A stretch of DNA of 32,000 nt from Delftia acidovorans NBRC 14950 (GCF_001598795.1 NZ_BCZP01000011.1:30001-62000), one strand, 5' to 3'; positions 1-28,659 are shown, counted from the stretch's first letter. Made by a program: numbers and translations. The notes: generated by a model not told the origin, from the sequence alone.

Positions 1-319
1 GCGGCAGGTAGCCCCCCAGCAACGCGCCCAGCAGCTTCTTGCCGGTCTCGTCCGACAGCGAATGGCCGTACAGGCGGCCCACCTTGCGCAGCAGGCTCAG
101 CTGCACGCCGGTGAGGGCGATCAGGTCCAGGCCCGGAACCGGCAGGATGCCGATGCCCATGGCCGTGATCACGTGGTTCTTGATGGTGTGCAGGGCCTCG
201 TTTTGCCGCTCCTGCGGGGTCAGGGGCGCATCGGCTGTTTCAGCAGAGGCCACGGCAGCATCGGCAATGGCCGTGTCGGTGGCAGGGCTCACGGTACTTT
301 CGGCTTTTTCCACGCTCAT
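1..319 (-). CDS. DUF697 domain-containing protein (N-terminal part; ORF runs out of the window at position 1)
   Basis: ATG at 319-317, preceded by GGAG (330-327) with a 7-nt spacer. Hand translation: MSVEKAESTVSPATDTAIADAAVASAETADAPLTPQERQNEALHTIKNHVITAMGIGILPVPGLDLIALTGVQLSLLRKVGRLYGHSLSDETGKKLLGALLGGYLP... The block 'GIGILPVPGLDLIALTGVQLSLLRKVGRLYG' matches my memory of the DUF697 (YcjF-like) signature. It is absent from the ORF track because it is open-ended at the window edge. Confidence 0.6.
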   Translation of the reverse strand, partial: MSVEKAESTVSPATDTAIADAAVASAETADAPLTPQERQNEALHTIKNHVITAMGIGILPVPGLDLIALTGVQLSLLRKVGRLYGHSLSDETGKKLLGALLGGYLP

Positions 320-405
320 GGGAAATCTCCAGTTGGGGAACAAGTGGCCCGGCGCACGGCGCCGGGAAGGCGGCACAGGAAGCGGAGTTCGCCCAGTGCC
401 ACGGC

Positions 406-421: not shown

Positions 422-441
422 AAAGTGTCACCGACACCGGA

Positions 442-470: not shown

Positions 471-471
471 C

Positions 472-503
472 CCTGCGCGCCGCGCCCTGGCCGCGGGCGC
501 AGG
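472..503 (-). terminator. GC-rich hairpin just downstream of the last NRPS-operon gene (possible operon terminator, no clean U-tract)
   Basis: Arms cctgcgcgccgcg (472-484) and cgcgggcgcagg (492-503) pair with one bulge; the loop is ccctggc. On the minus strand the hairpin is followed by GTTGACTGTT, which is only weakly T-rich. Confidence 0.3.
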
Positions 504-542
504 AGGGGGTCAGGGGACTGCGAACGGGGTGCATTCGGGGCC

Positions 543-2147
543 TCAGCCTTCGGCTTTTCCGTAGAGGCGCTCGGCCGGGATGCCCAGATCCTCGCAGGCG
601 GCCAGCAGGGAGCGCACGGAGCGCATGGCGGCCGACTCCGGGTCGAACTCGATGCTGGTGATAAACGACAGCCACGGCTCCAGCCCCAGTGCATAGACGA
701 AGACCTGCTCGCACTGCAGCATGCGCAGCAGGCCCATGGCGCGGCGGTAGTCCGAGCCGTCGAGCCGGCGCGACTGGTCGCGTGCGCGGTCCAGCGGTGT
801 CGGCAGCAGCGGACCGTACAGCCAGCTCAGGGGCGCGCCCTCGCACTCCATGCCGATGAACAGGGCCTGCAGCGAACCCACCACGGGGCGCAGGTGCTCG
901 TACAGGCGAGGCTCCAGATTGTTGGAGTCCGCCGCGAACAGCAGGCGGCTGCCGGCGGCATCCACCAGCCAGGCGGCCTTGGTGCGAATGTCCAGATCGG
1001 CATGCTCGCCCAGGAAAGGCAGGGCGGTGACCGTCAGGTCGCCCTCGCTGAAGACCTCCAGCGGGCCGATTTCCTGCACATCGGCAAAGCCCGCCGCCTG
1101 CAGTGCGAGCTTGAGCGAGGGGTCGGCAAGACTGCCTCCCCCGCCGGCTGGCACCAGAACCCGACCGATGCGCGAGCGCAGGGCCAGCAAGGTCTCCAGC
1201 TGCACATGGTCCTGGTGGTTGTGCGTCAGCGCCACGCAGTCGATGCGCTGCGGCAGGTCGGCCAGCGTGAAGCGCGGTGTCTGGCCCGCGCTGCCACCGG
1301 CAGGCACCAGGGGATCGATCAGCACGCTGCGCCCACCTGGCGTCTCGACCAGCACGCAGGCATGGCCGAAATACCGCCAGCGCGCGCTGCCCACCGGCGC
1401 CGTGTCCGCCAGGTCCCCACCGCGCCGGGCCGGTGGCGTGCCGGTCAGCAAAGCGTGGAAGCGGTCGGCCCGCGCGCCCTCCAGCCCGAGCGACTCGGCG
1501 ATGGCATCGAAGGGGCGCGGTGCGTGCCGCAGCGCTGCCAGCATGTCGTTGGCGGGGCTGGCATACGGAATCTGCAGGGCGACCGCCCCGTCACGTTCGA
1601 GCTGCGGCGTGCCCAGGGCAAAGGGCCGCACATCGCCGCCGCGCATCACCAGCGTGCTCTGAGCCGAGGTGTCATACAGCGGGCTGCGGTAGAGCAGCGC
1701 CTCGATCAGGCGCAGGTCCGGTGCGCCGGTCAGCGAGTACACGAGCTCCGCATAGCCGCGCACCGAATCGGGAAGGCGCGGATACAGCTGCGCCATCGAA
1801 TGCCCATCGGCCTGGGTCTTGAGCAACTCCCAGCACTGCCCCAGGTCGGCAGCAAACGACAACAGCCCGGCATGGCGCTGGCGCGTCTCGTCCAGCAGGG
1901 CCTGGATGTCCCCGCGGCGCTCGGCCGGCCAGTCCATGAAGGGGCCGCCGCGCATGGCGGCATTGGCCACGGCCTGGGCATGCAGCTCGGGCGCCTCCAG
2001 ATAGGACTCCATGATGCGCACGTAGCGGTTGGCCAGGTACAGGGCCGCCGTGGCGGGCGAAATCAGAAAGGACCAGGCATACCAGCCCGCGAACCGTGGC
2101 ACGGCCACCACGTCCTCGCGCAGATAAAGCGGTGTTGCGTCAGCCAT
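543..2147 (-). CDS. CmlA-like nonheme diiron beta-hydroxylase candidate (N-terminal domain plus MBL-fold domain; would be annotated MBL fold metallo-hydrolase)
   Basis: ORF track 543..2159. I prefer the ATG at 2147 (MADATPLYL...) because GAGGAG lies 5 nt upstream and ATGGCTGA overlaps the upstream TGA stop (2142-2140). HxHxDH motif THNHQDH is at 1206-1226. Length is about 534 aa, with an N-terminal domain of about 260 aa ahead of the MBL fold. It is the last gene of an NRPS operon, the context described for CmlA-family beta-hydroxylases acting on carrier-bound amino acids. Confidence 0.55.
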   Translation of the reverse strand: MADATPLYLREDVVAVPRFAGWYAWSFLISPATAALYLANRYVRIMESYLEAPELHAQAVANAAMRGGPFMDWPAERRGDIQALLDETRQRHAGLLSFAADLGQCWELLKTQADGHSMAQLYPRLPDSVRGYAELVYSLTGAPDLRLIEALLYRSPLYDTSAQSTLVMRGGDVRPFALGTPQLERDGAVALQIPYASPANDMLAALRHAPRPFDAIAESLGLEGARADRFHALLTGTPPARRGGDLADTAPVGSARWRYFGHACVLVETPGGRSVLIDPLVPAGGSAGQTPRFTLADLPQRIDCVALTHNHQDHVQLETLLALRSRIGRVLVPAGGGGSLADPSLKLALQAAGFADVQEIGPLEVFSEGDLTVTALPFLGEHADLDIRTKAAWLVDAAGSRLLFAADSNNLEPRLYEHLRPVVGSLQALFIGMECEGAPLSWLYGPLLPTPLDRARDQSRRLDGSDYRRAMGLLRMLQCEQVFVYALGLEPWLSFITSIEFDPESAAMRSVRSLLAACEDLGIPAERLYGKAEG

Positions 2148-5100
2148 GTGTCTCCTCAAGCCAATAGGTCAGCGGCCGGTCCTGGTCCAGCGTCTCCAGC
2201 AGGTGCGCCATGGACTCCAGCAGGGCGTCGGCCACGGCGGGAGCGACCTTGAGCGCGTCGTGCACCGCCAGCAGGCGAAAATCGTCGCCGGGCATGACTT
2301 CCAGGTTGAACGGGTGGTGCCAGGCGTCACGGATGTCCACATCGTGAAAAGCCAGGGCGGCGCTGTCGCTGCCCAACTCGCCCAGCGGGTAGTTCTGAAT
2401 GCGCAGCGCCGTGCCGAACAGGTCATCGGCAGCGGCCAGCCCGGCGGCCGATGCGATAGCCCGCGGCGCCAGCCAGGCATGACCAGACGCCTGCATGCGC
2501 CGGCGCTGCAACTGCTGGCAGGCGGCGGCAAAGCCCTGCGCCCGGTCGAGCCTCACGCGCAACGGCGGTGTGGCCAACATGGCGCCCACCATGGCCTCGG
2601 CACCCTCGAGTTCGGCGGGACGCAGGGCCGAGGTGACGCCAAAGGCCAGGTCGTCGCGCCCCATGTGCCGCGCCAGCACCAGCGCCCACGCCAGCAGGGC
2701 CACGCTGGGCACCGACAGGCGGTGGCGGCGGGCAAAGGCAGCCACGCTGGCGCCCGTCCCGGCTGCCAGCACCCGGTGCACCTGGCGGGAACGTCCGCTG
2801 GCCACGGCTGCCTCGGCAGCAGGCCAACGCGAGGGCGCCAGGCCCGCCAGTTCATTCTTCCAGAAGGCCTGCGCGCTGCCCGCATCCTGCGCATCCAGCC
2901 AGTCGAGGAAGCGCCGCACGTCGGGCGCTGGAGTGTCGGGCGCCGCCGCGCCGGGCAAGCGGCCCGCATAAACGGCCTGCACATCGGCCATCAAAATCGG
3001 CATCGACCAGCCATCGACCAGCAGGTGATGGTAGGTCCAGCAAAAGCGCCAGCCGCCGTCCGGCATGCGGGCGAGCGCAAAGCGCATCAGCGGGGCGCGG
3101 GCAAGATCGAAGCCGCGCGCCTGCTCGATCTCGCGCAGCGCATCGTATGCGACCTGTGCATCGGCGGGTGTCCAGGCAGACCAGTCCTCGGTGCGCCAGG
3201 GCGCGGCGGTGAGGCTGTCGTCCACATGCTGGCGCCCCGACCCGTCTGCTGCGTCCACAGAGAAACAGCCGCGCAGCGCCGCATGGCGAGCCACGGCGGC
3301 GTTCCAGGCAGCCATGAAAGCGGGCACGTCCAGCGTCGCAGGCAGGCTGGCCCCCAGTTGCACCACATAGGCGGACGATCCCGGGCAGGCCAGGGCGTGG
3401 GCCAGCATGGCGTCCTGCTGCGGCCCCAGGCCATGCGAGGGCAAGGCTGGCGCGCGCAAGGACGGGCTGGCCTGTGCGCCGCCTGCCTGTACAGAACCGG
3501 CTTGCCGCGCACTGGCCGCCGCGTGCACCAGCCAGGCCTGCATGTCGGCGGCCAGCGCCGCAATCCAGCCTTCCTCCAGGTCCCGGGGATCGTAGGTGAG
3601 ATCCAGCGCCAGCCGCCCGTCCGCCACCATGGCATTGACTTCCAGCGGGAAGGCACGCGGCGTGCTCGCCGCGAAGCCCGGGCCATCGCGCTCCGGCGCA
3701 GGGCGCAGGCCCTCGCCTTCGGGCCAGGCCGTATCCCATTGCCCCAGGTAGTTGAAGGCGATGCCGGGCGGGGCCTGCGCGGCCAGGGCCTGGCGCACGG
3801 CCGGCTCGGGCGAAAGCTGGCTGAGCACGCCGTAGCCGAAGCCGCGCCGCGGCATGGCGCGCAGAGCCTCACGCACGACCGCAAGAGCAGACAGCGCGGA
3901 CGGGCCCGCAGCGCCGTCCGCAGGCGGGGCATCGGGCAACGATCGAGGCAGGGGCAGTGCCAGGGGTGCCAGCGCCGTGAACCACCCCACGGTGGAGCCC
4001 ACCTCCAGGCCTTCAAGCACCACATCGCGGCCATGCGACTCCAGCGCCACACCGATGCAGCGGCCCTGGACGCGACCGGCCAGGGCCGAGGCCAGCGCCG
4101 CCAGCAGCAGCTCCTGCATGGAGGCGCCATGGACCCGTGGCGCCTCGCGCAGCAAGGCGCCAGTCTCGTCCACGGACAACTGCACGCCGAGGGTGACGGC
4201 TCCGCCCACCGTGGAGGCCGCCCCGGCGCCACGCGCCAGCGGCAGGCAGGCGTCGCCTGACTGGGCCAGCCAGTACGGCAGCTCGGCACGCGCCGACTGC
4301 GATGCGGCATGGCGCGACACGGCTGCCGCCCAATGGCTGAAGGACGCGCCAGGCGGCCTGGCAATGCGGCCAAGGCGGCAGGCCTCGGCCAGATCGTCCA
4401 GCAGCACGCGCCAGGACACGGCGTCGATGGCCAGGTGGTGCACGACCAGATGCAGGCGCGCCTGTGCCTGTGCATGAGTTGGCGCCTCCTCCTGGCCCGG
4501 GGGAAGGTACAGAGCCGCGTGCATCAGCGGGCCCGCCTGCAGGTCCAGCCGCTCCTGGTTGGCCACGGCGGCGGCCTGCAGCCGCTCGCGCCATGCGGCC
4601 GGCGTTTCGCCAGGCGGCGATGCCACCACCTGCAGCAGCGGGACCGCAGGCGGCACAAGGCCATCGGCCAGCGTCTGCACCCAGCCGCCGTCCTCGCGGC
4701 GATAGCGCAGGCGCAGCGCATCATGGCGCTGCAGCAGCAGCGCCAGCGCGGCCTGCAGCCGTTCGGGCGCGAGGTCGGCAGGCACGGTCAACAGAAAACT
4801 CTGGTTGTAGTGCTGGCGCTGCGGAGCGTCCAGCGCCAGGAACCAGCGCTGGATGGGCGTGAGCGGCACGCGGCCATCGCCTGCAACGTCCTCGGTGGCG
4901 CGGGGCTGCACCACCGGCCCTCCGTCCTGATCCAGCAGCGCCACGAGAGCAGCCACCGTCTGCGAGGCCGGGTCCATCAGCTGCGCCAGCGTGATGGCCA
5001 GCCCCTGCCGGTTGGCCCGCGCAACCACCTGGATGGCAAGAATGGAGTCCCCGCCCAGCTCGAAAAAGCTCTGGTGCGGCCCCACCTCGGCAACGCCCAG

Positions 5101-8100
5101 CACCTGGGACCAGACCGCCGCCAGCCGCGCGCAGGCGTCGCCTGCAGCGGCGTCGGCGGCAGGCGCTGGCGAAGACGGCCGCGCCGGCTGCGCCGCCAGT
5201 TGCCGGCCCAGTGCCTGGCGGTCGATCTTGCCGCTGTGGGTGAGCGGGAGCTGGTTCAGCTCCACGAAATAGGCGGGAACCATGTGCGCAGGCAGGCGGG
5301 CCGCCAGGTACGCGCGCAACGCCTCGGCGCCGACGGGGTTCGCGGCGCCCACGCAGGCCGTCAGCCGGTGGTCGGCCTCGCCGTGCGCAATGACCAGCAC
5401 CGCTGCGGCCTCCACGCCCGGGTGGGTGGCCAGCGCAGCCTCGATTTCGCCCAGCTCGATGCGCAGGCCGCGCAGCTTGATCTGGTGGTCGTTGCGGCCT
5501 GCAAAGTGCACGCGCCCATCGGCCAGGCGCCAGCCCCGGTCGCCCGTGCGGTACAGCCGCTCGCCGGGGTCGCCGAACGGATCCTGCACAAAGCTGGCCG
5601 CCGTCAGCCCGGGACGCCCCAGGTAGCCCCGCGCCAGCCCTGCACCGCCGATGTACAGCTCCCCCGGCGCCCCCGGGGGCAGCAGGCGCATGTCCTCGTC
5701 CAGCACATGCAGCTGCATGTTCGGCAGCGGCCGTCCAATGGGCAGCTGGTCGGCGCGTTGCACGCCCTCCTGCACGCTGACAGCCACCGAAGCCTCGGTC
5801 GGTCCATAGGCATTGAAAAAGCGCCGGCCCACCGACCACCGCAGCGCCAACTCCGGTGCACAGGCCTCGCCGGCCACCACCAGCAGGCGCAGCGCATCAA
5901 GCGAGGCCGCCTCCAGGGTGGAAAGCACCGTGGGCGGCAGTGTTGCGGCGGTGATGCCATGGCGCCGCACAAAGGCCTGCAGCTGTGGCCCGGCCCTTGC
6001 CATGTCCGGGGCAGGCACCAGCAGCGCCGCCCCATGGCGCCAGGCCATGGTCATCTCCCAGACGGAGGCGTCAAAGGACAGCGAGGCGAACTGCAGCACG
6101 CGATCGCTTCCATCCAGCGCGAACACGCGCTGCTGGGCATGGGCCAGGGCGCGCATGCCCGCCCGCGTATTGACCACGCCCTTGGGCGTGCCCGTGGAGC
6201 CGGACGTATAGATCACATAGGCCGAGGACGAGGCCTGCGGTTGGGCAAGCACAGTGGCCTCGGCAGCCTCGTCTGGCGACATGGTGCCGAATAACTGCTC
6301 CGGCGTGAGGCAGCGCAAACCCAGTTCCTCCGCCACGGGCAGCGCGGCATCGGCCAGCACCAGCACTGCGCCGCTGTCCTCCAGCATGAAGCGCTGGCGC
6401 TGCGCCGGCAGCGCAGGGTCGATGGGCACAAAGGCTGCGCCCGCGCGCAGGATTGCGGCAATTGCCGCCAGGCATACGGGAGAGCGGCCCAGGCACAGGG
6501 CCACACGGGTTTCTTGCCCTGCACCCAGGGCATACAGCGAGCAGGCCGCCTGGCTCGACAGCCTCGCCAGTTGCGCATAGTCCATGCGACCGTGCGGCCC
6601 TTCCAGGGCCGTGGCGCCGGGCGTGTGCTGCGCCCAGTGGTCGATCCAGTCCACCAGAAAGCGCTCGTCCATGGTCTCGGCAGGGCCGGTGCCGGCCTCC
6701 AGGGCATCGCGCGCCTGCTCGGGCGCGAGCTGCAGCAGCGAGCCCAGTGCCTGACCGGGCTGCGCCGCCATGGCGGCAAGCAGCGCATCGAGGTGCGACA
6801 GCAGGCGGCGCGCTGCCGCAGCCGGCACCTGCTCGCGGTCGCGGTGCAGTGCCAGGCGCCATCCATCCGTGCCTTGCATGCAGGCCAGGGTGAGCAGGAA
6901 GTTGGTGCGCTCATGGCTGGCGACTGCGGCCAGGCACAGACCACCGGCCTGCAGCGCATCGGGCGCAGGATAGTTCTGCACCAGAACCAGGGACTGGAAC
7001 AGATCGCAGCCTGGCTCCAGTTCCGAGGCCTGGCGGATTTCCGCCAGCGATGCGGCCGCATGCTGCTCGCGCTCCAGGTGGTCCCGCTGCAGCGCGGACA
7101 GCCACGAGAGCAGCGGCATGCCGGCAGCCACACGCACACGCGCCGGCACCGTGGCGATCAGCATGCCGACCATTTGCTCCACGTCAGCGATGTCGGGAGA
7201 GCGCCCCGACACGGTCACACCGAACACCAGGTCGCGGCTGCCGCTGTGGCACGACAGCAGCAGTGCCCAGGCGGCCTGCAGCACGATGCCGGGCGTGGCA
7301 CGCGCGGCGCGGGCCAGCGCGGCCAGGGCGCTGCTGGTGGCGGGCGGCAGCAGGCATTCGATCGGGTCCGGAGCCTCAGGCTCGACAGGCTCCCCGGCCT
7401 GGCGCAGAAAGGCCAGTGAGGTGGGCTCGTGCAGGCCCTGCAACGCCTGGCGCCAAAAGGCCTGGTCGGCCTGCACGTCGCGCCGCTGGTGCCAGCGCAC
7501 GCAGTCGGCGAAATCGGGCGCGCGCGGCAGCGCTGGCGTGCCATCGCCCAGGGCCTGGCCGTACAGGCGGAAGACCTCGTCCATCACCACAGAGACCGAC
7601 CACCCGTCCAGCAGCAGGTGGTGGGCGCTCCACAACAGCTCATGGCGGTCTTCTGCCGTGTGCAGCAGATGCAGGCGCATCAGGGGCGCGTGGCGCAGGT
7701 CGAAGCCCCGGGCCCGGTCCTGCGCCAGCAGTGCCGACAGGGCGGCATGCTGCGCGGCCGTATCCATGGTGCGCCAGTCGTCGTGCTGCCAGGGCAGCTC
7801 CACGTGGGCATGCACATGCTGCATGGCCTCGCCATCGTCCCAGTGGAAGCTGGTACGCAGCACGCCGTGGCGTGCCACCACAGCTTCCCAGGCACGGCGC
7901 AGCGCTGCCGGGTCCAGCGGACCCTGCAGGGTCAGTGTCAATTGATCGAAGTAGACCTGGTCATCGGGTGCACGCAGACTGTGGTAGAGCAGGCCGTGCT
8001 GCAGGGGCGTGAGCGCCAGCACGGCCACCGGAGCACGGCTGCGGGGAACGGCCTGCGGCACCTGCCCGGCCGGGGCAGCACATGCTCCACGGCCCTCACG

Positions 8101-11100
8101 CGCGGCGCTGGCGATCTCGGCCAGCACGGTCTTCACCTCATCCAGCCATTGGGCGATGCGCTCGCGGTTCGGCCCCCCTGCCGGAAAGCTCAGTTCCCCG
8201 CGCAGCCGGCCATTCCAGAGCCCCGCATTGAGCTCGATCACATGGCTGCGCGCCAGTCCGGGGGCCTGCGCAGGTCCCGCCGCCTCATCCACCGGAGCGA
8301 TGGTCTCGTCCCCGGCAGGGGCGCCGTCCATGCGGCCCAGGTAGTTCAGCAGCAGTTCCGGTTCAGGCAGCGCGGCCAGGCCGGCGCGCACGGCGCCGTC
8401 GGGCGAGCGGTAGCGCAGCAGCCCCAGCGCCAGTCCCTGCCATGCGGCGCCGCGCACCTGAGCGGCAACCTGCGCCACCACCGCCGCGGCATCGGCGGCG
8501 CCGTGAGCTGGCTCGATGCCCACGCGCTGCAGCGCCGTGAACCAACCGACGGTGCGAGACAGGTCCAGCTCCTCGAAGAGGTCGGCGCGTCCGTTGCGCT
8601 CCAGATCCAGCCGCCAGGGACCATCCACCCCCAGCCGCACGCCTGCCACAACCAGGGCGGCGAGCAAAGCCTCGTCCACGCGGGCGGCAAAGGCACGCGG
8701 CACCTCGTGGACCAGGGCCTGCGTCGTCTCCTCGTCCAGTTCGAAGGCCAGGGTCTGGGCCTGGCCCACGCAACCGGCTGGCGTCTGGGGAGGCAACACG
8801 GTCGCGCCCACCTGGCTGAACGCCTGTTGCAACGCCTGCGCCTGCGCAGCCGCCTCGGGCCCGGCGGCCAGCTCGCCCAACCGGTGCGACCAGCGCGCAT
8901 AGGAGCTGGTGGGCGCGGGCAGTCGCACGGGCTCGCCGCGCGACACTTGTGCGCAGGCCAGGGCCAGGTCTTCCAGCAGTACCGACCAGGAATAGGCATC
9001 CACCGCCAGGTGGTGAATGGCCAGCATCAGCCGGCCCGTGCCGGGCAGCAGCACGCCACGCACCATGCGGCCGGACGCCGGGTCCATGGCGCGCTGGGCC
9101 GCGGCAAAGGCTTCGGCCTGGCGCTGCTGTGCCTCTGCCGGTGCAAGGCCCTCCAGGCAGACCACGTCCAGCACAGGCCCGGGCGCCATGGGGGCAATAT
9201 CCAGCACGCCTTGTGCGTCCACCCGCAGGCGCAGCATCTCGTGGCATGCCACCACGCCCGCGAGCGCCCGCTCCAGCGCTTCGGCCGGCAACTGCGGGGG
9301 CACGCGCAGCACGGCCGCCTGGTTGTAGTGAGCGGCCCCTGCCCCTGCATGCTCCAGGAACCAGGCCTGGATGGGGGTCGGTGACAACGGTGCCCCGGCC
9401 TCCGCCACCGGTACCGTCGGCGCGGCCCGCGACCGCAGGGCGATCTCCCCGGCCAGGGCACGCACGGTCTGGGTGCGGAAGATGTCGCGCACCACCAGGT
9501 CCAGGCCCTGGCGGCGCGCACGCGAGACGATCTGCAGGCAGCGGATGGAGTCCACACCCAAGTCGAAGACGTTGTCGGTGACGCCCACCTGCGCAAGGTT
9601 CATCACCTCGGCAAAGAGCCTGGCCAGGGTGGCTTCCAGCGGGCTGCAAGGCTGGGCCGTGCCGTCCGCCACAGGCAGCTGCGGCGGCGACTGGAGGGCC
9701 AGCCCCGCCAGCGCGCGCCGGTCGATCTTGCCCGATGCCGTATGGGGCAGGCTCTCCAGCACGCGGCACACGGCAGGCACCATGTAGGGCGCAAGCCGCT
9801 CGGACAGCCAGCTGCGCAGCGCCGCCGCATCGGCCTGTCCCGCAACCACCGCGAGCAACACCGGCTGGCCTGCGCCATCGTGCGCCAGCACCACGGCAGC
9901 CTCGCGCACGCAGGGATGGGCCATGAGGGCGGCCTCCACTTCGGCGGGCTCGATGCGAAATCCCCGGATCTTCACCTGCGCATCGCGCCGGCCCAGGAAC
10001 TCCAGCGCACCGTCGGCACGCCGCCTCGCCAGGTCGCCGCTCCAATAGGCGCGCGCCCCGCCCAGTGCGGCGCAGGCGCGAAAAGCGGCCTGTGTGGCCT
10101 CGTCCTGTTGCAGATACCCCTGCGCCACACCACCGCCGCCGATGACGATTTCGCCGATGGCCCCGGCAGGCAAGGCCTGCCCGGCGCTGTCCACCACGGC
10201 CAGTTGCACGCCCTGCAGCGCATGGCCCAGAGGCAGGATCTCGGCCGCCAGAGGCAGCACGTCGTGCGCGGGGTCGAAGAACGCGGCCGAAATGGTGGCC
10301 TCCGTCGGGCCATAGCCGCTGAGCAGGGCCACAGGATGGCGGCACAGCGCCTGCCACTGGCGCAAGCTGCGCACGAAAACGCGGTCGCTGCCCGTGACCA
10401 CCAACCGCAGGGCGGGCGGAACAGCCGTGCCCGATGCATGCAGCATGCCCACCCACTCGTGCCAGAACGCGGACGGCAGATTGAGCACGGTCAGCCGCGC
10501 GCCTGCCACCTGGGCCTGGAAAGCCTCCAGGCTGTCAAGACTGTTCTGTGCCCGCAGCACCACGCAGGCACCGGAGGCCAGCGTGGGGAAGATCTCCTCG
10601 GCAGCCACATCGAAATCGGGTGCCGCGAACTGCAGCACGCGATCGGTCTCGCACAGGCCGAACTCACGCGCCACCGCCGCCGCATGGTGGGCCAGGTTGG
10701 CATGGCTCACGACCACGCCCTTCGGGGCGCCGGTCGATCCCGAGGTGAAGCAGACATAGGCCCGTTGCGCGGGGTCTGCGAGCCAGGGCTGCTGCGCGGC
10801 GCTGCCGGCAGGCTCTGCCACCAGGTCCGGCGCCAGGTCCGGCGCTACCAGCACCGTATGCGAAGGCCACTGCTCCGCCGCAGACGCGGTAATGACCAGG
10901 CGCACGCCGGCCGCCTCCATCATGGTCGCGCGCTGTGCCAGCGGCCTCGCCAGGCTGAGTACGGCATAGGCACAACCACAGCGCCAGGCCGCCAGCATGG
11001 CCACCGGCAAAGCCAGGCAGTTGCCCAGGCCCAGGCCGATCAGGTCGCCGGGCCTGGCACCCGCGCCGCGCAGTCGCCCGGCCAGTGCGTCGGCCTGGCA

Positions 11101-12770
11101 CACAAGCTCGCGCAGCGAAAGTGCCGCGCCATCCGCCTGCACGGCCATGCGCTGCGGCCAGCGATCGGCAGCGCGGGCTATCAGCGCGGGGACGGATGCC
11201 GGCGCAGCGCCCTCGGGCATGGCTGGTGCGGGAGCCACGGCGCAGGCCTGCGGGGCCAGCGCCAGCCGGGACAGTGCAAGGCCGCACGCCCACTGCCCCG
11301 CCACATGCGCAAACTGCGCGCACAGCGCAGCCACGGTGGCCGGGTCGAACAGGTCGGCGTCGTACTCCATGTCGCAGGCGAAGGCTTCGCCGTCCAGACG
11401 CGCCGACAGGTTCAGGTCCAGCTCTGGCGCCGCCGCTGGCACGGGCAGCGGCCGCACGGCCAGCCCCTGCATCGCCAGCACGGCTGCACCAGCGGTCTGC
11501 TGCACGAACATGGTCTGGAACAGGGGCGCACGGTTGAGCGCCCGCTCGGGCCGCACGGCCTGCACGATGCGCTCGAACGGCAGGTCCTGGTGCTCGAATG
11601 CCTGCAGGCAGGTGCGGCGAACGCGCTGCAGCAGCTCGGCAGGTTGGGGGTCGTCGCGCAGGTCGATGCGCAGCGGCAGGGTGTCGATGAAGAAACCGAC
11701 CAGTCCCTGCGTCTGCGGCGTGTCCCGGTGGGCCACCGGGCAGCCGATGACGACCTCGTCCTGGCCGGTCCAGCGCCCCAGCACGGCGGCATAGGCGGCC
11801 AACAGCGCCATGAAGGGCGTGACGCCTGCGCGTGCTGACGCCTCCTGCAGCGCCTGGGTGCCCTCCGGCGAGATGCGAAAGTGATGGTGGGCGCCACTGG
11901 CGCCGCGCTCTGCGGGCCGGGGCCTGTCCAGCGGCATCGCCAGCTGGGTGGGTGCGCCCTGCAGTTGCGACTGCCAGAAGGCCAGTTGCGGCGCCAGCCG
12001 CGCCTCATCCAGCGTGGCGCGCTGCCAGGCCGAGTAGTCTGGGTAGCGCAGGGGCAGCGGTTGCAGCGGCGACGGCAGGCCCTGGCAGGCCGCGTCATAC
12101 AGCTGGCCGAGTTCGGCCAGCAGCAGCCCCATGGACCAGAAATCCCCGGCAATGTGGTGCAGCGACAGGGCCAGCACGTGGCGCTGCGGCTCCAGTGCAA
12201 ACAGGCGCAGCCGCAAGGGGGGCGCCTGCGTCAGATCGAAGGGCTGGCGCGCCTGCTGCGCCATCAGGTCGGCCAGGCCCTGGGGTGAGGCATCGTCCAC
12301 GGACTCTGGCTGAAGGCGCACGGCCGTGGCAGCGCCGATGCGCAGCACCGGCTCGGCGGCCTCGTCCACGATGACGCTGCGCAGCAGCTCGTGGCGCTCC
12401 ACCAGCACCGTCAGCGCCTGCTGCAGGGCCTCAAGGTCCAAAGGGCCTTCGAGCTCGAAACAGGCGGCCATGATGAAGGCGCTGCCACCGCCCTCCAGCC
12501 GGTCCAGGAACCAGAGCCGGCGCTGGTTGAAGGACAGCGGCACGCGGTCGGGATCCACCTCTGCAGCAGCTCCTGCGGCCACTGGCGCGGGCCCGCTGCG
12601 TGACAGCAGGGCCAGCAGCTGCGGCTTGAGAGCGCGCAGCTCATCGCGCATCTGCCCGCCAATGGCACCTGCCGGGCCGCGCACTTTCAGATCGCCGCCC
12701 TCGACTTGCACGGTCACGCCCAGCTGCGCCAGGCGGGCCAGCAGATCGCTTGCCCTGTCGCTCGCACTCT

Positions 12771-12774
<4 letters not shown>
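2140..12774 (-). CDS. Non-ribosomal peptide synthetase, two modules: TubC-like docking domain-C-A-T-E-C-A-T-E-C (terminal condensation domain, no TE)
   Basis: ORF track 2140..12813. The preferred start is ATG 12774 (MKSASD...), which forms an ATGA overlap with the upstream stop and has GGAGGA 11 nt upstream. Motifs read from sequence, in order: HHIAGD 12142-12159; TSGSTG 10729-10746; carrier Ser (DLGVDS) 9547-9549. E domain 1: PIQAWF, HHLAVD 8998-9015. C domain: HHLLLD 7606-7623. A domain 2: TSGSTG 6190-6207, FDASVWE 6055-6075; carrier Ser (GGDS) 5044-5046. E domain 2: PIQRWF, HHLAID 4423-4440, FNYLGQ. Terminal C: HHLLVDGWS 3013-3030. Confidence 0.95.
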
Positions 12775-23830
<11,056 letters not shown>

Positions 23831-23834
<4 letters not shown>

Positions 23835-26800
23835 GGCAGCGCCTTGGTTGCTGCAGCGCCGTGGGCGGCCGCCTTTTGATCAGGGGTCATGCTTTCGATC
23901 TCGAACAGCCGGCCCGCAATGGCCAGCGTGATTCCCGGGCGGGATTCCAGCGCAATCACGCGCTGGCAAAAATCTGCCATGCAGGGGTGGCGCAACAGCT
24001 CGGCCATCGATATATCGACGCGAAACAGCTCCCGCGTGCGCGCCGCGATCTGCGCCGCCCCCAGCGAATTGCCGCCCAGCGAGAAGAAGTCGTCGTCCAC
24101 ACCACAGTCGGCCAGGCCCAGCGCCTTGCACCACAGGCGCACCATGTAGCGCTCGAACGCATTGCGTGGCGCTGCGCTGGATGCCATGCCCGCAGCCAGG
24201 CGCAAAAGGGCCGCGCGGTCCAGCTCCCCCCGGGCATCGGTGGGCAGGGATGCGACGTTCAGCACCGGCACGCTCACCGGCCGTCCACAGGCATCGTGCA
24301 GCCACCGATGCGGTGCGGACGGGTCACCGCTGCCGGCCACTTCATTCACTTGCTCCACTTGATCCACTTGATCCTCTTCGCCGGCACGGCGCGCGTCGAC
24401 TGCGGCGCCTTCACGCACCCAGACCAGCTCATCGGCACCGTAGATGGCGCCCTCGCGCACCGCGGCGTGACGGGGATGGCCGAGGTCCAGGCCCACGGTC
24501 ATGACAGGCTGCTCGCCGCGCACCGCCAATTCGAAGGCCTGCAGGCCCTGCGCCTCATCGATCGACAGATAGCCCGAGGCAGCGAACAGCGCCGGGTTCG
24601 ACACCTGGCGGCTCAGGCCGATGTCCCGCCACGCCGAAAAACCGAGGTAGCGGCAGCGGGCGCCACCGGCGCTGTGCGCCTGTCGCTCCACAAAGGCCAT
24701 CTGCCAGGCATCTCCCGCCGCATAGGCCGCCACGCGGCGCCCCCCCAGCAGGCCCATGACCGAGCCGGCCACCAGGAACAGGGCCCGGGGATCGTGGGCG
24801 ATCAGGGCGTGCAAATGGCGCGTTCCCTCGACCTTGGCGCGCTGCGCCCGGGCAAAGCATTGCTCTTCTTCCTCCGCACACAGGGCCAGGCGCGACTCGG
24901 CTGCCAGTTGCACCACGCCGGCCAGCGGCTGTCCGAAGTGCTGCTGCGCCTGGGCCACCGCGGCCTGCAGGGCGGCGGGGTCGGTGACATCGGCCTGCAC
25001 GTACAGGAGCGTCCCGCTGCGCGAAAGCAGTTCCAGTGGCTGCCGGCGCTCCACAGCAGGGGCACGGCCGACGATGAGCAGCCGGGCGCGGTACCGGCCG
25101 AGCAGGTGCCGGGCCAGCAAAAAGCCCACGCCCCCCAGCCCACCGGCCAGCAGGTACAGCCCCTGCTCCTGGAATCCCTGATGCCCTGCAGCATCGGGAA
25201 CCAGGGGCACCAGGGGCACCAGGGGCACCAGGCGCCGCACCCGCCGCACGCCGGCATGCCACAGCACCTCGGGCTCGCGCTGGCTGCAGCCCAGTTCCGC
25301 GCACAGCCCGGCGGCATCAAGAACGGCGGCATCGGCAGCGACACTGGCGTCGGCATCGGCAGCGACACCGGCGTCGCCCCAGGCGACATGGCGGCAGCGC
25401 AAGGCAGGCATTTCAGCCTCCAGACTGCGCAGTACCGCGCGCGCCATTGCCCGCTGGCCCTCGTCCTGAGCCGTACCTGCGCAGACCAGCAACCGGCCTG
25501 GCACATGCCCGCCGGGGGCGGCCAGCCAGCGGGCTGCCTGCAGCAGGCCAGGGGCCAGCGCCTGTTCACCGGCCAGCACCAGCACATCAGGCGCCCACTC
25601 GCGCAACGCGGCCACGGCGTCGGCCGGTGAGCCGGTATCGTCCAGCGCCATCCAGCGGTGACGGGGCTGCAGGGCCTGCAATTGCGCCAGCGCCTGGGCG
25701 CCGGCACCACACAGCGCCACAGTCAACGCATGCGCCTGCGCAGGCGCCATGGCCGGCAACGCATCGTGCTGGCGCGGGCGCCATACGGGCCGGGCAAACC
25801 AGGCAGGTATGGTGCCTGCACCGCCGATCAGGCAGGCGGCATCCTTGATTTCGCGATCAAAGGCCCCTGTCTCCACCAGGCGGCGCAGCTCCACGCGCTG
25901 CACCTTGCCGGCACCCGTGCGCGGCAGGCGCTCGGGCGGCACGGCAATGAAATGGTCCACGGCCAATCCCAGGTCCTGGCCCAGGCGCATGCGCAAGGCG
26001 CGCATGAGCGAACGGCGCAGTTGCGGCTCGCCAGCGCCCGGCGCGTGAAAGAACAGCACCAGTTGGTCGGTGGCCGCGCCGGCCGGGCGCACGCCGATGG
26101 CAGCCAGCCCCTGGCGGTCCAGGCCGGGCACGCGCGCAGCGGCCTCCTCGATCTCGGCGCTGTAGAAATTGGCACCGTTGACGATGATCATTTCCTTGAC
26201 GCGGCCCACGATGTGCAGCTCGCCCGAACGCAGGAACCCCATGTCGCCGGTCTGGAACCAACCGTTGCGCAGCGCCTCGGCCGTGAGGTCGGGCCGGCCG
26301 TGATAGCCCGAGAACACCGAGGGCCCGCTGAGTTCGACCCGCCCGATCTCACCCTCCATCAGGGTGCGGCCTGCATCGTCCACGATGCGCTGTGCACCGC
26401 CTGCGATCGGGTGGCCCAGGCTGGTCACCGCCTCGCCGGACGCTGTCCAGCAACGCAGCGAGAACGCAGAGACCGTCTCGGTCATGCCAAAGGACATCCA
26501 GACGGCGCCCTGCCTGAGCCCGTCCTGCGCAAAGCGGCGCTCGAAATCCACGAGGACCGGCTCCGATACCGGCTCCCCGGCGTTGATGAGCATGCGCAAA
26601 CAGGACAGGTCCCAATGGCCGGGGGCCTGGCCGCGGGCTGCACGCAGCAGCAGGTCGAATGCAAAGTTGGGCGCCCACACCGCTGCGACCCGGTGCTCGG
26701 CCACGAGGTCCAGCCAGCGCGCGGGAGCCTCGAGGATGGTGGCCGTATCCACCTGGACCTGGTCCAGGCCCAGCACCGTAGGCATCACGCACAGGAACAC

Positions 26801-27913
26801 CACGCCGCCCACATGGTCCAGCGGCATCCAGTTCAGCGCGGTCTCGCCGGGCGCGAAGCGCAGTTGCTGCTGCACGCCGCTGATCATGGCGGCCAGATTG
26901 CCGCGGCTCAGTACCACGCCCTTGGGCGTTCCGGTGCTGCCCGAAGTCAGCAGCATCAGTGCGGGCTGCCCCGGCCCGGCGCTGGCCGAGGGCTGCGCGG
27001 GCGCACCCGCCTGCAGTGCCTGGGCATCGAGCAGCTGCATGCCCTGCAGCGCTGCGGCATGGGGCCGCAAGCCGGCCAGGGCTGCCGCAGAGCCGACCAC
27101 GGGCGCCCTGCCCGCCACCTCCCAGCAGTTGAGCAACCGCTCCAGGCCGGCCCCCCCGGCCGCCGCCGGTCCCAGTGCCAGAGGCGCCGGCACCAGGCCG
27201 CCGAGCACACAGCCCCAGAACACGGGCAGCAGGTGACGACTGTCCCCGGCGTCCACGATGACGGTGTCACCCGCCTTCAGCCCCAGGGCCAGCAGCCCGC
27301 CCAGGGTGCGGCAGGCCTCGTCGAGCAGTTGCGCATAGCTGGTGCGGGACTGGGAAAGATCGGCAGCCACATGGACGATGCCCGCTCCGGGACGCGCAGC
27401 CGCGCGCACCAGCGCCTGCTCCAGCGCATATCCGACACCCGCGTCCGGCAGCGCAGGTGAATGGTGGACGGCAGGAATGCGCTCGTGCAAAGGCACCGCG
27501 CCGCGCCGCGCCGCAGGTGCGGGCGCCGGATCGCCCAGCAAGGGCCGGCCGGGCAGCAGATCGCACAGGTGCAGGTGGGAAGCCGGCTGCACGGCAGGCC
27601 GGGTGACCAGCGCGCTGCCCCATTGCTGCTGCGCGGCGTCGACCGCGCCCGGTGACCAGACTGGCAGTGCGGCCAGGGCGGCCTCGTCGATGGCGCCCAT
27701 GTCATCGAGCGGCAAGGCGCTGACCCGCACCACCGCATCGCCTGCGCCAGCCAGGGCAGCCTGCAGGGTATCGCGCTCTCCGCCCACCACGTAGGCGACC
27801 AGACCGTCGAACCCCGCAGCATTGCGCCGTGAAAGATGCACATCGGCGGCTCCCACCGCCATCAGGCGGGCTTTCAGACCGCCCGCTTCCGCCCCGCTGT
27901 CCGTACCCGCCAT
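23831..27913 (-). CDS. Loading subunit: adenylate-forming (FAAL/A-domain-like, ANL superfamily) domain - PKS-type ketoreductase (with structural subdomain) - peptidyl/acyl carrier protein
   Basis: ORF track 23831..27967 begins at a TTG. I prefer ATG 27913 (MAGTDSG...), which has GAAGGG about 9 nt upstream and sits downstream of the predicted promoter/TSS. Motifs: LTSGSTGTPKG 26930-26947; NWMPLDHVGG; IVNGANFYSAEIE; A10-like GAGKVQR with Lys codon 25904-25906; KR Rossmann AGGLGGVG 25124-25147 with K/S/Y candidates; carrier FFSLGGNS with Ser codon 24065-24067. Confidence 0.9.
24337..24381. repeat. Imperfect in-frame 9-bp tandem repeat (about 5 copies, CCACTTGAT-like) encoding EEDQVDQVEQVNEV between the KR and carrier region of the loading subunit
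   Basis: Plus strand reads ccacttcat tcacttgct ccacttgat ccacttgat cctcttcgc. Confidence 0.75.
25200..25235. repeat. In-frame 9-bp tandem repeat (ACCAGGGGC x3 plus one variant) encoding LVPLVPLVPLVP just upstream of the KR Rossmann fold
   Basis: Plus strand reads accaggggc accaggggc accaggggc accaggcgc. Confidence 0.85.
25327..25374. repeat. 24-bp tandem duplication (2 copies, one mismatch) encoding DAGVAADA/DASVAADA in the KR structural subdomain region
   Basis: cggcatcggcagcgacactggcgt (25327-25350) is followed directly by cggcatcggcagcgacaccggcgt (25351-25374). Confidence 0.85.
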
Positions 27914-27978
27914 CGATCCGATCCCTTCAAAGCTGTGGCTCCGACGCCGATTCACTGCCCTGCCCAAAGACCGGCCGG

Positions 27979-28007
27979 ATAGTTACAAACATTTTCTTTA
28001 ATGTCAA
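27979..28007 (-). promoter_or_regulatory. Putative sigma70 promoter of the NRPS-PKS operon (TTGACA-17 nt-AACTAT with extended -10 TGn)
   Basis: Minus strand reads TTGACA (28007-28002), the 17-nt spacer TTAAAGAAAATGTTTGT, then AACTAT (27984-27979). The TG of an extended -10 lies within the spacer end (tgT-AACTAT). The predicted TSS near 27972 leaves a leader of about 59 nt before ATG 27913. Confidence 0.5.
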
Positions 28008-28102
28008 TGCAGCCATTCTCATTAAGAGAAGGTTCAATGGAAACATTGGCATGCCAACGCAAGAGAAACGCCGACAGCAAAGCCTGGCAAATTCAATTGA
28101 TT

Positions 28103-28122
28103 ATTGAAAATGGATTTTCAAT
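28103..28122. promoter_or_regulatory. Perfect inverted repeat ATTGAAAAT-GG-ATTTTCAAT (candidate regulator binding site upstream of the operon promoter)
   Basis: Read directly: attgaaaatggattttcaat, with 9-nt arms and a 2-nt spacer. It lies in the AT-rich block about 100 nt upstream of the -35. The adjacent TCAATTGA palindrome is at 28093-28100. Confidence 0.35.
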
Positions 28123-28139
28123 ATATTTTCACCGCATGT

Positions 28140-28161
28140 ATATCACTGAAATCAGTGATAT
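28140..28161. promoter_or_regulatory. Perfect inverted repeat ATATCACTGA-AA-TCAGTGATAT (candidate operator/activator site)
   Basis: Read directly: atatcactgaaatcagtgatat, with 10-nt arms and a 2-nt spacer, about 135-155 nt upstream of the -35. Confidence 0.35.
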
Positions 28162-28534
28162 CGACATCGTGGCGTCAAAGAGCGGCGCCAGGAAGAGCGG
28201 GCGGCAAGATCACGGCGAAAGCCATGCAGGCCCGGGAACTGAAGGGTGACTGCAAGAGAGCTGCTGACCTTGAACGGGCAGGATATGGGCAGGGCATAGG
28301 CAGGCGGCCAATGCACCATGGCTGTGCATGAAAACGGTCATCAGTGGCAGCCCTGCCATGAATAAGCATGCCACCCATAAATCAGTGCTGCCAGGATCTT
28401 TTTTTTGACGCAAGCGCTTATTGAAGCAATTGCGCCACAGTCACGGAAACAGCACGGAAAGCCATCGAAACAAAACAATGCAAATTCCGAGCTGGGCAGG
28501 GGCCAGGATTTGCACGAGGAAGATCGTCCAGACG

Positions 28535-28570
28535 AAAAAAAGCCCCTCGGATTTTATCCGAGAGGCTTTT
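28535..28570 (-). terminator. Rho-independent terminator downstream of tRNA-Val
   Basis: Minus strand reads AAAAGCCTCTCGGAT-AAA-ATCCGAGGGGC followed by TTTTTTT. The stem is 28542-28566, with an A-run at 28535-28541 and a T-run at 28567-28570 on the plus strand. It starts about 13 nt after the tRNA 3' end. Confidence 0.7.
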
Positions 28571-28582
28571 CACCAATATATT

Positions 28583-28659
28583 TGGTAGGCGCGATTGGAC
28601 TCGAACCAACGACCCCCACCATGTCAAGGTGGTGCTCTAACCAGCTGAGCTACGCGCCT
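28583..28659 (-). tRNA. tRNA-Val (anticodon GAC), CCA encoded
   Basis: The reverse complement is AGGCGCGTAGCTCAGCTGGTTAGAGCACCACCTTGACATGGTGGGGGTCGTTGGTTCGAGTCCAATCGCGCCTACCA, 77 nt. It folds as a cloverleaf: 7-bp acceptor stem; D arm GCTC/GAGC; anticodon stem CCACC/GGTGG with loop TTGACAT; T arm GTTGG-TTCGAGT-CCAAT. It closely resembles the E. coli tRNA-Val(GAC) I recall. An extended -10-like TGCTATACT lies upstream at about 28679-28687. Confidence 0.95.

What the first reader, a model, noticed from the sequence alone, without database searches (positions are those of the whole stretch)
543..28007. Orphan, self-contained four-gene hybrid NRPS-PKS operon with an unusual overall architecture
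Four minus-strand genes are packed with overlapping stop/start codons: ATGA at 23831-23834 and at 12771-12774, and ATGGCTGA at 2140-2147. They sit behind a single strong-looking promoter. Colinear reading gives [ANL-KR-T] -> [C-A-T-C-A-T-KS-AT-KR-ACP] -> [dock-C-A-T-E-C-A-T-E-C] plus a diiron-hydroxylase-like tailoring enzyme. The predicted skeleton is a (hydroxy)acyl starter, then a beta-amino-acid-like residue, then a residue X extended by malonate and reduced (gamma-amino-beta-hydroxy, statine-type). Two D-configured residues follow, the last Phe-like and possibly beta-hydroxylated, with release by a terminal C domain. I do not recognise this combination as a characterised pathway. No MbtH-like protein, PPTase, transporter, regulator or thioesterase is encoded between the flanking housekeeping genes, so the operon is unusually minimal.
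Basis: partly seen in the sequence, partly recalled or inferred. Interest (0 to 1): 0.85.

Follow-up and report, generated by a model that had tools for sequence, protein, structure and literature searches.

The report
Delftia copy of kasumigamide gene cluster
The four big genes are real, but they are the Delftia copy of the already published kasumigamide peptide-polyketide assembly line, and the "missing" helper genes lie just beyond the window edge, so this is a known pathway.

Summary
The anatomy is confirmed. Four minus-strand genes overlap by ATGA/ATGGCTGA. Their domains are A-KR-T; C-A-T-C-A-T-KS-AT-KR-ACP; dock-C-A-T-E-C-A-T-E-C; and a CmlA-type diiron hydroxylase. The interpretation "orphan, uncharacterised, minimal" is not supported.

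The window is 100% identical, over the 12,147 bases compared, to a Delftia genome (GCA_000741825.1). Its hydroxylase is 533/534 identical to that of D. acidovorans CCUG 274B. Nakashima et al. 2016 (PMC5061366) described that strain's cluster as dakasA-J, a homologue of the kasumigamide (kas/makas) cluster with the same domain order.

Kasumigamide is phenyllactate, beta-Ala, a Trp-derived gamma-amino-beta-hydroxy acid, D-Arg and D-erythro-phenylserine.

The operon is not minimal. Directly downstream lie DUF697, a type II thioesterase, two small unknown genes, a cyclic-peptide ABC exporter, an SPFH/Band-7 protein, an Sfp-type PPTase and a second DUF697-like gene. The first of these starts at window 319 and runs off position 1.

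The whole 34.5-kb block is a strain-variable island between tRNA-Val and phaR. Production in Delftia has never been shown. Verdict: already known, low interest.

The parts
23831..27913 (-). kasA-type loading gene (g1, 1360 aa from ATG 27913). It holds an ANL/adenylation domain (~25856-27367), a PKS-type KR (24671-25162) and a carrier domain (23957-24145).
   Evidence: Pfam hits: AMP-binding 3.6e-49, KR 2e-30, PP-binding 1.2e-12. The specificity code is GGFWIASSAK, without Asp235, so the substrate is not an alpha-amino acid. The size and order equal KasA (1381 aa, A-KR-PCP) in PMC5061366.
12771..23834 (-). kasB-type hybrid gene (g2, 3687 aa). Domains: C 22395-23714; A(beta-Ala) 20850-22337; T ~20580-20777; C 19206-20510; A 17655-19115; T ~17370-17567; KS 16176-17300; AT 14892-15716; KR 13287-13817; ACP 12819-13013.
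   Evidence: Pfam. Specificity codes are VDWVTSLADK and DVSQVGAVTK. The KS has TACSSS and HGTGT; the AT has GHSLG and HAFH, a malonyl-type motif. Same order and size as KasB (3694 aa).
2140..12774 (-). kasC-type NRPS gene (g3, 3544 aa). Domains: TubC_N docking 12601-12747; C 11302-12546; A 9727-11196; T ~9439-9636; E 8005-9417; C 6655-8022; A(Phe-type) 5194-6642; T 4933-5127; E 3475-4887; terminal C 2143-3492.
   Evidence: Pfam. Alignment of the seven C-type domains and their His motifs. TIGR01720 is found in the two E regions only. Specificity codes are DVENVGGISK and DAWTVAAVAK. Same order and size as KasC (3560 aa).
543..2147 (-). kasD-type diiron beta-hydroxylase (g4, 534 aa).
   Evidence: CmlA_N 1.4e-71 plus a metallo-beta-lactamase fold. 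Full-length match to CmlA structures 4JO0/5KIK at E 2.8e-114, with THNHQDH conserved. 533/534 identical to the D. acidovorans CCUG 274B protein. Between strains there are 20 synonymous and 0 non-synonymous changes.
1..319 (-). The first 106 codons of the next cluster gene (DUF697, 192 aa), which runs off the window.
   Evidence: Gene calls in six Delftia contigs. The window is 100% identical to L005. Pfam DUF697 1.3e-15. 74% identical to the orthologue in the Paraburkholderia cluster.
27914..28582 (-). AT-richer leader and promoter region at the left end of the island. It holds TTGACA at 28002-28007, perfect palindromes at 28102-28123 and 28140-28161, and a terminator-like hairpin at 28538-28570 after the tRNA.
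   Evidence: Composition 55% GC; sequence; repeats; no consensus promoter. This sequence is absent from Delftia genomes without the island.
28583..28659 (-). tRNA-Val(GAC). The island begins 2 nt after its 3' end.
   Evidence: ARAGORN; Rfam 67.6 bits; comparison of empty and occupied sites.

Best explanation
This is the Delftia representative (published as dakas) of the kasumigamide NRPS-PKS assembly line. It is carried on a 34.5-kb strain-variable island inserted between tRNA-Val and phaR.

Proposed mechanism:
- Gene 1 adenylates an alpha-keto acid (phenylpyruvate in the characterised system). It loads the acid on its carrier domain, and its KR reduces it to the alpha-hydroxy acid (phenyllactate).
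- Gene 2 adds beta-alanine and then an aromatic amino acid (Trp in the characterised system).
- The KS-AT-KR-ACP module of gene 2 extends that residue with malonate and reduces the beta-keto group. This gives a gamma-amino-beta-hydroxy acid.
- Gene 3 docks through its TubC_N domain. It adds a basic residue (Arg) and epimerises it to D.
- Gene 3 then adds Phe or phenylserine, which is also epimerised.
- The CmlA-type diiron enzyme (gene 4) supplies the beta-hydroxyl.
- The terminal D-donor-type C domain, or the downstream type II thioesterase, releases the linear acid.
- The downstream ABC transporter exports the product, and the Sfp-type PPTase primes the six carrier domains.

Shown here: gene and domain order, intact catalytic motifs, specificity codes, near-identity to the published strain, island boundaries and purifying selection.

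Inferred from the literature: the substrates phenylpyruvate, Trp and Arg, the timing of hydroxylation, the release step and the identity of the product.
For: Domain order and protein sizes equal KasA-D: 1360/3687/3544/534 aa here against 1381/3694/3560/529 aa.

PMC5061366 names D. acidovorans CCUG 274B as a carrier of a kas homologue with identical domain organisation, 70.6% GC, and A-domain pockets 77-100% identical to Kas/Makas. The window's hydroxylase is 533/534 identical to the CCUG 274B protein, and the same sequence is widespread in Delftia. The window equals GCA_000741825.1.

The code VDWVTSLADK is the beta-Ala type and DAWTVAAVAK the Phe type (assignment of these codes is from my own knowledge of published codes). 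The same four codes recur in related clusters from Paraburkholderia and from metagenomes.

E domains follow both gene-3 modules, matching D-Arg and D-erythro-phenylserine. CmlA homology is strong.

The accessory genes (TE, ABC exporter, PPTase and others) lie inside the same insertion relative to empty-site genomes. dN/dS is 0.21 for gene 3, and gene 4 has no amino-acid changes between strains.
Against: No metabolite data exist for Delftia. The 2016 authors state they did not confirm production, and no later paper in the searchable library does.

I could not retrieve KasA-D or MakasA-D sequences for a direct comparison, and the paper's code table is an image. The Trp, Arg and phenylpyruvate assignments therefore rest on the paper.

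The starter A-domain code differs among family members, so the starter could differ from phenyllactate.

E1 has ERNGR in place of EGHGRE, and its TIGR01720 score (56.6) is below the cut-off of 74.2.
Confidence: 0.88

Rival explanations
1. The cluster belongs to the same family but makes a different product. The Delftia line would make a kasumigamide congener, for example with another alpha-hydroxy acid starter or another aromatic residue at position 3, rather than kasumigamide itself.
For: The starter A-domain pocket is GGFWIASSAK here but HRLTVASITK, HRLSIASISK or GGFNVGA-CK in related clusters. The paper reports only 77-100% pocket identity and could not match the KasA-A1 code to anything known. 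No product has been detected from Delftia.
Against: The four amino-acid codes are conserved across the family. The authors judged the Delftia pockets equivalent to Kas/Makas. Domain order is identical.
Confidence: 0.2
2. This is the first reader's reading: a novel, orphan, self-contained four-gene operon for an uncharacterised product, unusually minimal because it lacks TE, PPTase and transporter.
For: Within the 32-kb window no TE, PPTase or transporter of the cluster is visible. No MbtH gene is present in the island.
Against: A published homologous pathway has the same domain order and the same strain group. Eight further genes, including a TE, an ABC exporter and a PPTase, lie in the same insertion just beyond window position 1.
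Confidence: 0.02
3. The island is a silent or decaying remnant that makes nothing under any condition.
For: The promoter is poor by consensus. No product has been reported from Delftia. No regulator is recognisable in the island.
Against: All reading frames are intact over 28 kb. Catalytic motifs are present in the C, E, KS, AT, KR and T domains. Purifying selection acts between strains: dN/dS is 0.21 for gene 3, and gene 4 has 20 synonymous and 0 non-synonymous changes. The island is kept in many Delftia genomes.
Confidence: 0.08

Closest known systems
Kasumigamide biosynthetic gene clusters kasA-I ('Entotheonella' sp., LC160290) and dakasA-J (Delftia acidovorans CCUG 274B), Nakashima et al. 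2016, PLoS One 11:e0164468
   Same: The gene order of the three synthetase genes, all 23 domains in the same order, protein sizes within 1.5%, a CmlA-type hydroxylase, a terminal C domain instead of a TE domain, and an ABC 'cyclic peptide' exporter. The Delftia cluster is the same locus in a sister strain, with the hydroxylase 99.8% identical.
   Different: In 'Entotheonella' the hydroxylase gene precedes kasA, and the accessory genes differ: a regulator, a methyltransferase and flanking transposases. The Delftia island instead carries DUF697, TE II, SPFH and PPTase genes and has no transposase. The product has not been confirmed in Delftia.
makasA-D, Microcystis aeruginosa NIES-87 (LC160291). 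This is the only version with biochemically assayed A domains (phenylpyruvate, beta-Ala, Trp, Arg, threo-phenylserine).
   Same: The same five adenylating domains, one PKS module, the hydroxylase and the same product family.
   Different: In Microcystis the PKS module sits in a non-colinear position and the terminal C domain is missing. The window has the colinear arrangement and retains the terminal C.
AerA loading module of aeruginosin synthetase (A-KR-ACP; phenylpyruvate reduced to phenyllactate)
   Same: The same three-domain loader logic: an adenylating domain without the Asp235 amine anchor, followed by a KR and a carrier domain.
   Different: Not compared by sequence here. The paper gives about 41% identity between the KasA and AerA KR domains. 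The downstream assembly line is unrelated.
CmlA (chloramphenicol) and related diiron beta-hydroxylases (PDB 4JO0, 5KIK, 8A90)
   Same: A full-length alignment, the CmlA_N domain plus a metallo-beta-lactamase fold, and a conserved HxHxDH metal motif.
   Different: CmlA acts on carrier-bound p-aminophenylalanine. For the kas system, the Microcystis A domain preferred free phenylserine in vitro, so the timing may differ. This is unresolved.

Membership tests
kasumigamide (kas) NRPS-PKS cluster family | Loader protein with A-KR-carrier architecture, about 1380 aa | tested here: met
   Pfam finds AMP-binding, KR and PP-binding in gene 1, which is 1360 aa. KasA is 1381 aa.
kasumigamide (kas) NRPS-PKS cluster family | Second protein with the order C-A-T-C-A-T-KS-AT-KR-ACP | tested here: met
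   Pfam. KS, AT and carrier motifs are intact. The protein is 3687 aa against 3694 aa for KasB.
kasumigamide (kas) NRPS-PKS cluster family | Third protein with the order C-A-T-E-C-A-T-E-C, ending in a C domain rather than a TE | tested here: met
   Pfam finds five condensation-type stretches. Alignment separates the E domains from the C domains. TIGR01720 is found only in the two E regions. The terminal C has HHLLVDG.
kasumigamide (kas) NRPS-PKS cluster family | A CmlA-type diiron beta-hydroxylase encoded in the cluster | tested here: met
   CmlA_N 1.4e-71. PDB CmlA E 2.8e-114 over the full length.
kasumigamide (kas) NRPS-PKS cluster family | A-domain pockets for beta-Ala, Trp, Arg and Phe/phenylserine, in that order | tested here: inconclusive
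   The codes were extracted. The first (VDWVTSLADK) and the last (DAWTVAAVAK) fit beta-Ala and Phe by my recollection of published codes. The Trp and Arg codes could not be checked, because the paper's S2 Table is an image. The paper reports 77-100% identity for the Delftia pockets.
kasumigamide (kas) NRPS-PKS cluster family | The same locus as the published dakasA-J of D. acidovorans CCUG 274B | tested here: met
   Gene 4 is 533/534 identical to EPD44751.1 of CCUG 274B. Mapping to the accession range WP_016445283-WP_016445295 was not checked directly.
kasumigamide (kas) NRPS-PKS cluster family | Sequence orthology to the characterised KasA-D and MakasA-D proteins | not tested
   The reference sequences could not be retrieved.
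kasumigamide (kas) NRPS-PKS cluster family | Production of kasumigamide ([M+H]+ 787.4) | not testable with these tools
   No report for Delftia in the library.
tRNA-linked integrative genomic island | An insertion next to a tRNA gene that is absent from sister genomes | tested here: met
   The block of 34.5 kb begins 2 nt after tRNA-Val and is absent from eight of the ten places shown, e.g. CP018101 and CP002735.
tRNA-linked integrative genomic island | An integrase gene and flanking direct repeats | tested here: not met
   No integrase appears among the island genes. The two ends share no repeat of 9 nt or more. Instead, 103 bp of the empty site are replaced.

The most novel reading that the evidence does not exclude
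The Delftia island may make a so far undescribed kasumigamide congener, because its starter pocket differs from those of related clusters. In addition, the DUF697, ~60-aa, ~190-aa and SPFH/Band-7 genes recur beside kas-type assembly lines in Delftia, Paraburkholderia and several unrelated metagenome contigs. They may form an unrecognised membrane module dedicated to export of, or self-protection against, this peptide class.
Probability: 0.2. Interest if true: 0.35.

Novelty: already known. Interest (0 to 1): 0.15.

Why it matters
The finding matters little for discovery. The pathway, its product class and this Delftia locus were published in 2016.

It is a useful calibration case.

Some modest open points remain. 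Kasumigamide has never been shown from Delftia, a genus found in clinical, soil and insect-associated settings. The release step (terminal C domain or type II TE) is unresolved. So is the timing of beta-hydroxylation. The conserved DUF697/SPFH accessory genes have no assigned role.

Tried and rejected
1. I scanned genome contigs with an alignment of gene-1 relatives, hoping to fetch the Herbaspirillum, Microcystis and 'Entotheonella' loci.

2. A protein search with the whole of gene 2 timed out. A search with its A2-T-KS segment returned only proteins of 1751 aa or shorter at about 40% identity and no kas relatives.

3. The Herbaspirillum gene-1 homologue P0012 was not on record.

4. The paper's supplementary tables (A-domain codes and the dakas annotation) are held only as images.

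5. I first considered a fatty-acyl-AMP-ligase lipopeptide starter, because NCBIfam ranks FAAL models first for gene 1. All those scores are far below their cut-offs (248 bits against 572), and the A-KR-T architecture and the literature point to an alpha-keto acid loader. I rejected that reading.

6. I considered delftibactin or another siderophore and rejected it. The domain order differs, and there are no hydroxamate or beta-hydroxy-Asp tailoring genes.

7. I considered integrase-mediated insertion at tRNA-Val. There is no integrase and there are no direct repeats.

8. I looked for an MbtH remnant in the 72-aa ORF after gene 4. There was no Pfam hit and no tblastn match to the Paraburkholderia MbtH.

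9. Pfam run on the gene-1 N-terminus at E up to 10 found nothing.
Full report
**Observation.** The region 543-28000 is 70-74% G+C, and 28001-29000 just upstream drops to 55%. Four long minus-strand ORFs fill it: 23831-27967, 12771-23834, 2140-12813 and 543-2159. On the minus strand they read GCCATGAGC at 23831-23834, TTATGAAG (preceded by GGAGGA) at 12771-12774, and ACATGGCTGAC at 2140-2147. The likely starts are ATG 27913, 23834, 12774 and 2147. Gene calls in public assemblies use the same starts.

**Domains.** Pfam gives the following:
- Gene 1: AMP-binding, KR, PP-binding.
- Gene 2: two Condensation, two AMP-binding and three PP-binding domains, plus ketoacyl-synt N/C, Acyl_transf_1 and KR.
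- Gene 3: TubC_N docking, five Condensation-type stretches, two AMP-binding and two PP-binding domains.
- Gene 4: CmlA_N plus a metallo-beta-lactamase fold.

I aligned the seven condensation-type domains. Two of them are epimerases, with PIQxWF, HHLA(V/I)DA, SRTVGWFT and (L/F)NYLG. The other five are C domains. The two C domains that follow the E domains carry HHLL(L/V)DGWS, the motif I know from C domains that accept D-configured donors. TIGR01720 hits only the two E regions, at 56.6 and 74.5 bits against a cut-off of 74.2.

The KS has TACSSS and HGTGT. The AT has GHSLG and HAFH, which is the malonyl type by established knowledge. All six carrier serines are present. Gene 4 aligns over its full length with CmlA structures 4JO0 and 5KIK (E 2.8e-114), with THNHQDH conserved.

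The specificity codes, aligned to GrsA-PheA, are as follows:
- Gene 1: GGFWIASSAK, with no Asp235.
- Gene 2: VDWVTSLADK and DVSQVGAVTK.
- Gene 3: DVENVGGISK and DAWTVAAVAK.

**Source.** The exact hydroxylase sequence occurs in many Delftia assemblies and is named as Delftia acidovorans, D. tsuruhatensis and Delftia spp.. Over the 12,147 bases that overlap, the window is 100% identical to locus L005, from GCA_000741825.1 scaffold KN046795.1.

**What lies beyond the window.** The same six Delftia contigs show that gene 4 is followed by eight more genes:
- a DUF697 protein of 192 aa;
- a 257-aa thioesterase;
- a 188-aa protein with no family hit;
- a 60-aa protein with no family hit;
- a 553-aa ABC transporter;
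- a 385-aa SPFH/Band-7 protein;
- a 249-aa 4'-phosphopantetheinyl transferase;
- a 140-aa DUF697-like protein.

Only after these comes the housekeeping regulator PhaR. Pfam and NCBIfam confirm the assignments. The transporter passes the curated cut-off of TIGR01194, 'cyclic peptide export ABC transporter', at 334 bits against 286. The DUF697 gene starts at window 319 and runs off position 1.

**Island boundaries.** I looked up the dihydropyrimidinase encoded upstream of the operon. Many Delftia genomes have the order M20 amidohydrolase, tRNA-Val, PhaR, with nothing in between; examples are CP018101 and CP002735. Nucleotide comparison places the left edge 2 nt after the 3' end of tRNA-Val. The right edge lies about 110 nt before phaR. 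The block is about 34.5 kb and replaces 103 bp of the empty site. It has no integrase, and its ends share no repeat of 9 nt or more. All twelve genes lie inside this block, which defines the cluster independently of annotation.

**Identity.** A literature search for Delftia, 'biosynthetic gene cluster' and CmlA returned Nakashima et al. 2016 (PMC5061366). That paper describes the kasumigamide cluster of a sponge symbiont:
- KasA: A-KR-PCP, 1381 aa.
- KasB: C-A-PCP-C-A-PCP-KS-AT-KR-ACP, 3694 aa.
- KasC: C-A-PCP-E-C-A-PCP-E-C, 3560 aa.
- KasD: CmlA-like hydroxylase, 529 aa.

It also describes the Microcystis NIES-87 version, whose A domains were assayed. [quoted passage not shown]

The paper then reports two homologous clusters found by BLASTP. 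One is in Delftia acidovorans CCUG 274B (dakasA-J, 70.6% GC) and the other in Herbaspirillum sp. CF444. Both have identical domain organisation, and their A-domain pockets are 77-100% identical to Kas/Makas. Production was not confirmed in those two bacteria.

The window's hydroxylase is 533/534 identical to EPD44751.1 of CCUG 274B. The closest relatives of gene 1 outside Delftia are 45-50% identical proteins of Herbaspirillum and Burkholderia/Paraburkholderia. This is consistent with the paper.

The kasumigamide cluster is also used as a reference cluster in BGC similarity networks. No later paper in the library reports the compound from Delftia. Recent antiSMASH surveys of island-free D. acidovorans list only delftibactin as an NRPS-PKS. 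That fits a strain-variable island.

**Mechanism.**

Shown here:
- the order of domains;
- intact catalytic motifs;
- the absence of the amine-anchoring Asp in the loader;
- a beta-Ala-type and a Phe-type pocket (assigning the codes to these substrates rests on my recollection of published codes);
- a malonyl-type AT;
- two E domains;
- D-donor-type C domains after each E domain;
- a CmlA homologue;
- an exporter, a PPTase and a type II TE in the same insertion.

Inferred from the literature:
- phenylpyruvate as starter, reduced in cis as in AerA;
- Trp and Arg at positions 3 and 4;
- hydroxylation of Phe, free or tethered;
- hydrolytic release by the terminal C domain.

The release step is open. 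The Microcystis cluster lacks this C domain yet makes the same compound, and Delftia has a discrete TE.

Purifying selection argues that the cluster is functional. Between strains, gene 3 has dN/dS 0.21, and gene 4 has 20 synonymous and no non-synonymous changes.

**Family context.** A Paraburkholderia genome (L101) carries the orthologous set: kasC, hydroxylase, DUF697, a ~190-aa gene, a ~60-aa gene, ABC transporter, SPFH and DUF697. These are 40-74% identical to the Delftia proteins. That cluster has an MbtH gene, which Delftia lacks, and has no TE or PPTase. High-GC metagenome contigs (L088-L090) and an NCBI assembly (L007) place DUF697, a small ORF and Band-7 next to A-KR-T genes. The beta-Ala, second and third pockets are conserved there, while the starter pocket varies.

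**Promoter.** The consensus scan finds no sigma-70-like site in 27800-28750. A hairpin followed by a T run after the tRNA (28538-28570) suggests the operon has its own promoter. Two perfect 10-nt palindromes (28102-28123 and 28140-28161) lie upstream of the -35. Rfam finds only the tRNA.

**Verdict.** The feature is real and was read correctly at the domain level. It is an already published member of a characterised pathway, and it is not minimal. Novelty: already known. Interest is low. The remaining open points are confirmation of the product in Delftia, the release step, the timing of hydroxylation, and the role of the conserved DUF697/SPFH genes.

Noticed in passing
window 1-319 (-) and L005:11829-18005; also L101, L007, L088, L089, L090: A set of membrane-type genes recurs beside kas-type A-KR-T assembly lines in Delftia, Paraburkholderia and unrelated high-GC metagenome contigs. 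The set comprises DUF697, a ~60-aa ORF, a ~190-aa ORF, an SPFH/Band-7 protein and a second DUF697-like gene. No function is assigned. They may serve export or self-protection.
   Followed up: partly
window 27674-27823 (-), gene 1 residues 31-80: The N-terminus of the loader, ahead of its real adenylation domain, resembles the end of an A-domain C-terminal subdomain (LVAYVVGG ... LPLDDMGAID). It is 39% identical over 59 aa to the same region of gene 2's second A domain. The A10 lysine is replaced by Ala. The motif is conserved in the 11-sequence family alignment A1. Pfam sees nothing there.
   Followed up: partly
window 28102-28123 and 28140-28161: Two perfect 10-nt inverted repeats with 2-nt spacers (TATTGAAAAT-GG-ATTTTCAATA and ATATCACTGA-AA-TCAGTGATAT) lie in the AT-richer leader, about 95-150 nt upstream of the TTGACA hexamer. 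They are candidate operator sites, yet no regulator gene is recognisable in the island.
   Followed up: no
window 28538-28659 (-): The island starts 2 nt after tRNA-Val(GAC) and brings its own terminator-like hairpin. That hairpin replaces a different hairpin present at the empty site. 103 bp of the empty site are missing, and there are no direct repeats and no integrase.
   Followed up: yes
window 22395-23714 and 11302-12546 (-): The first C domains of genes 2 and 3 have non-canonical active-site motifs, HHAIIDL and HHIAGDF, in place of HHxxxDG. These domains accept the phenyllactyl starter and the ACP-bound polyketide-extended chain.
   Followed up: no
window 8005-9417 (-): The first epimerisation domain has ERNGR where E domains usually have EGHGRE. 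It scores below the TIGR01720 cut-off (56.6 against 74.2), although the known product carries D-Arg at this position.
   Followed up: no
window 28730-31951 (-): The upstream flank is a reductive pyrimidine-catabolism set: the end of an NCS1-type transporter, a dihydropyrimidinase, and an M20 amidohydrolase (beta-ureidopropionase-like). Dihydropyrimidine dehydrogenase genes lie further upstream in L093.
   Followed up: partly
L092, L098, L100 (about 13700-21300): A second variable spot lies just downstream of phaR. Some Delftia genomes carry prophage-like or mobile genes between phaR and the radical-SAM (MiaB-like) gene. These include a resolvase/recombinase, DUF2806, Peptidase_M15_3 and DUF2514.
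   Followed up: no
L101:11630-11863 versus window 316-534: The Paraburkholderia cluster has an MbtH gene directly after the hydroxylase. Delftia has only an unsupported 72-aa ORF there, and no MbtH anywhere in the island. Conversely, the type II TE and the PPTase are found only in the Delftia island.
   Followed up: yes
L007 (GCA_046233135.1, JBJXHN010000003.1): This is a variant kas-like cluster. An A-KR-T loader is followed by a 2202-aa C-A-T-C-A-T protein without the PKS part, and then by a 4199-aa protein. Two ABC transporters, a TE, Band-7 and DUF697 lie upstream. It keeps the beta-Ala, DVSQAGAVTK and DVENVGGITK pockets. It may make a different member of the compound family.
   Followed up: partly
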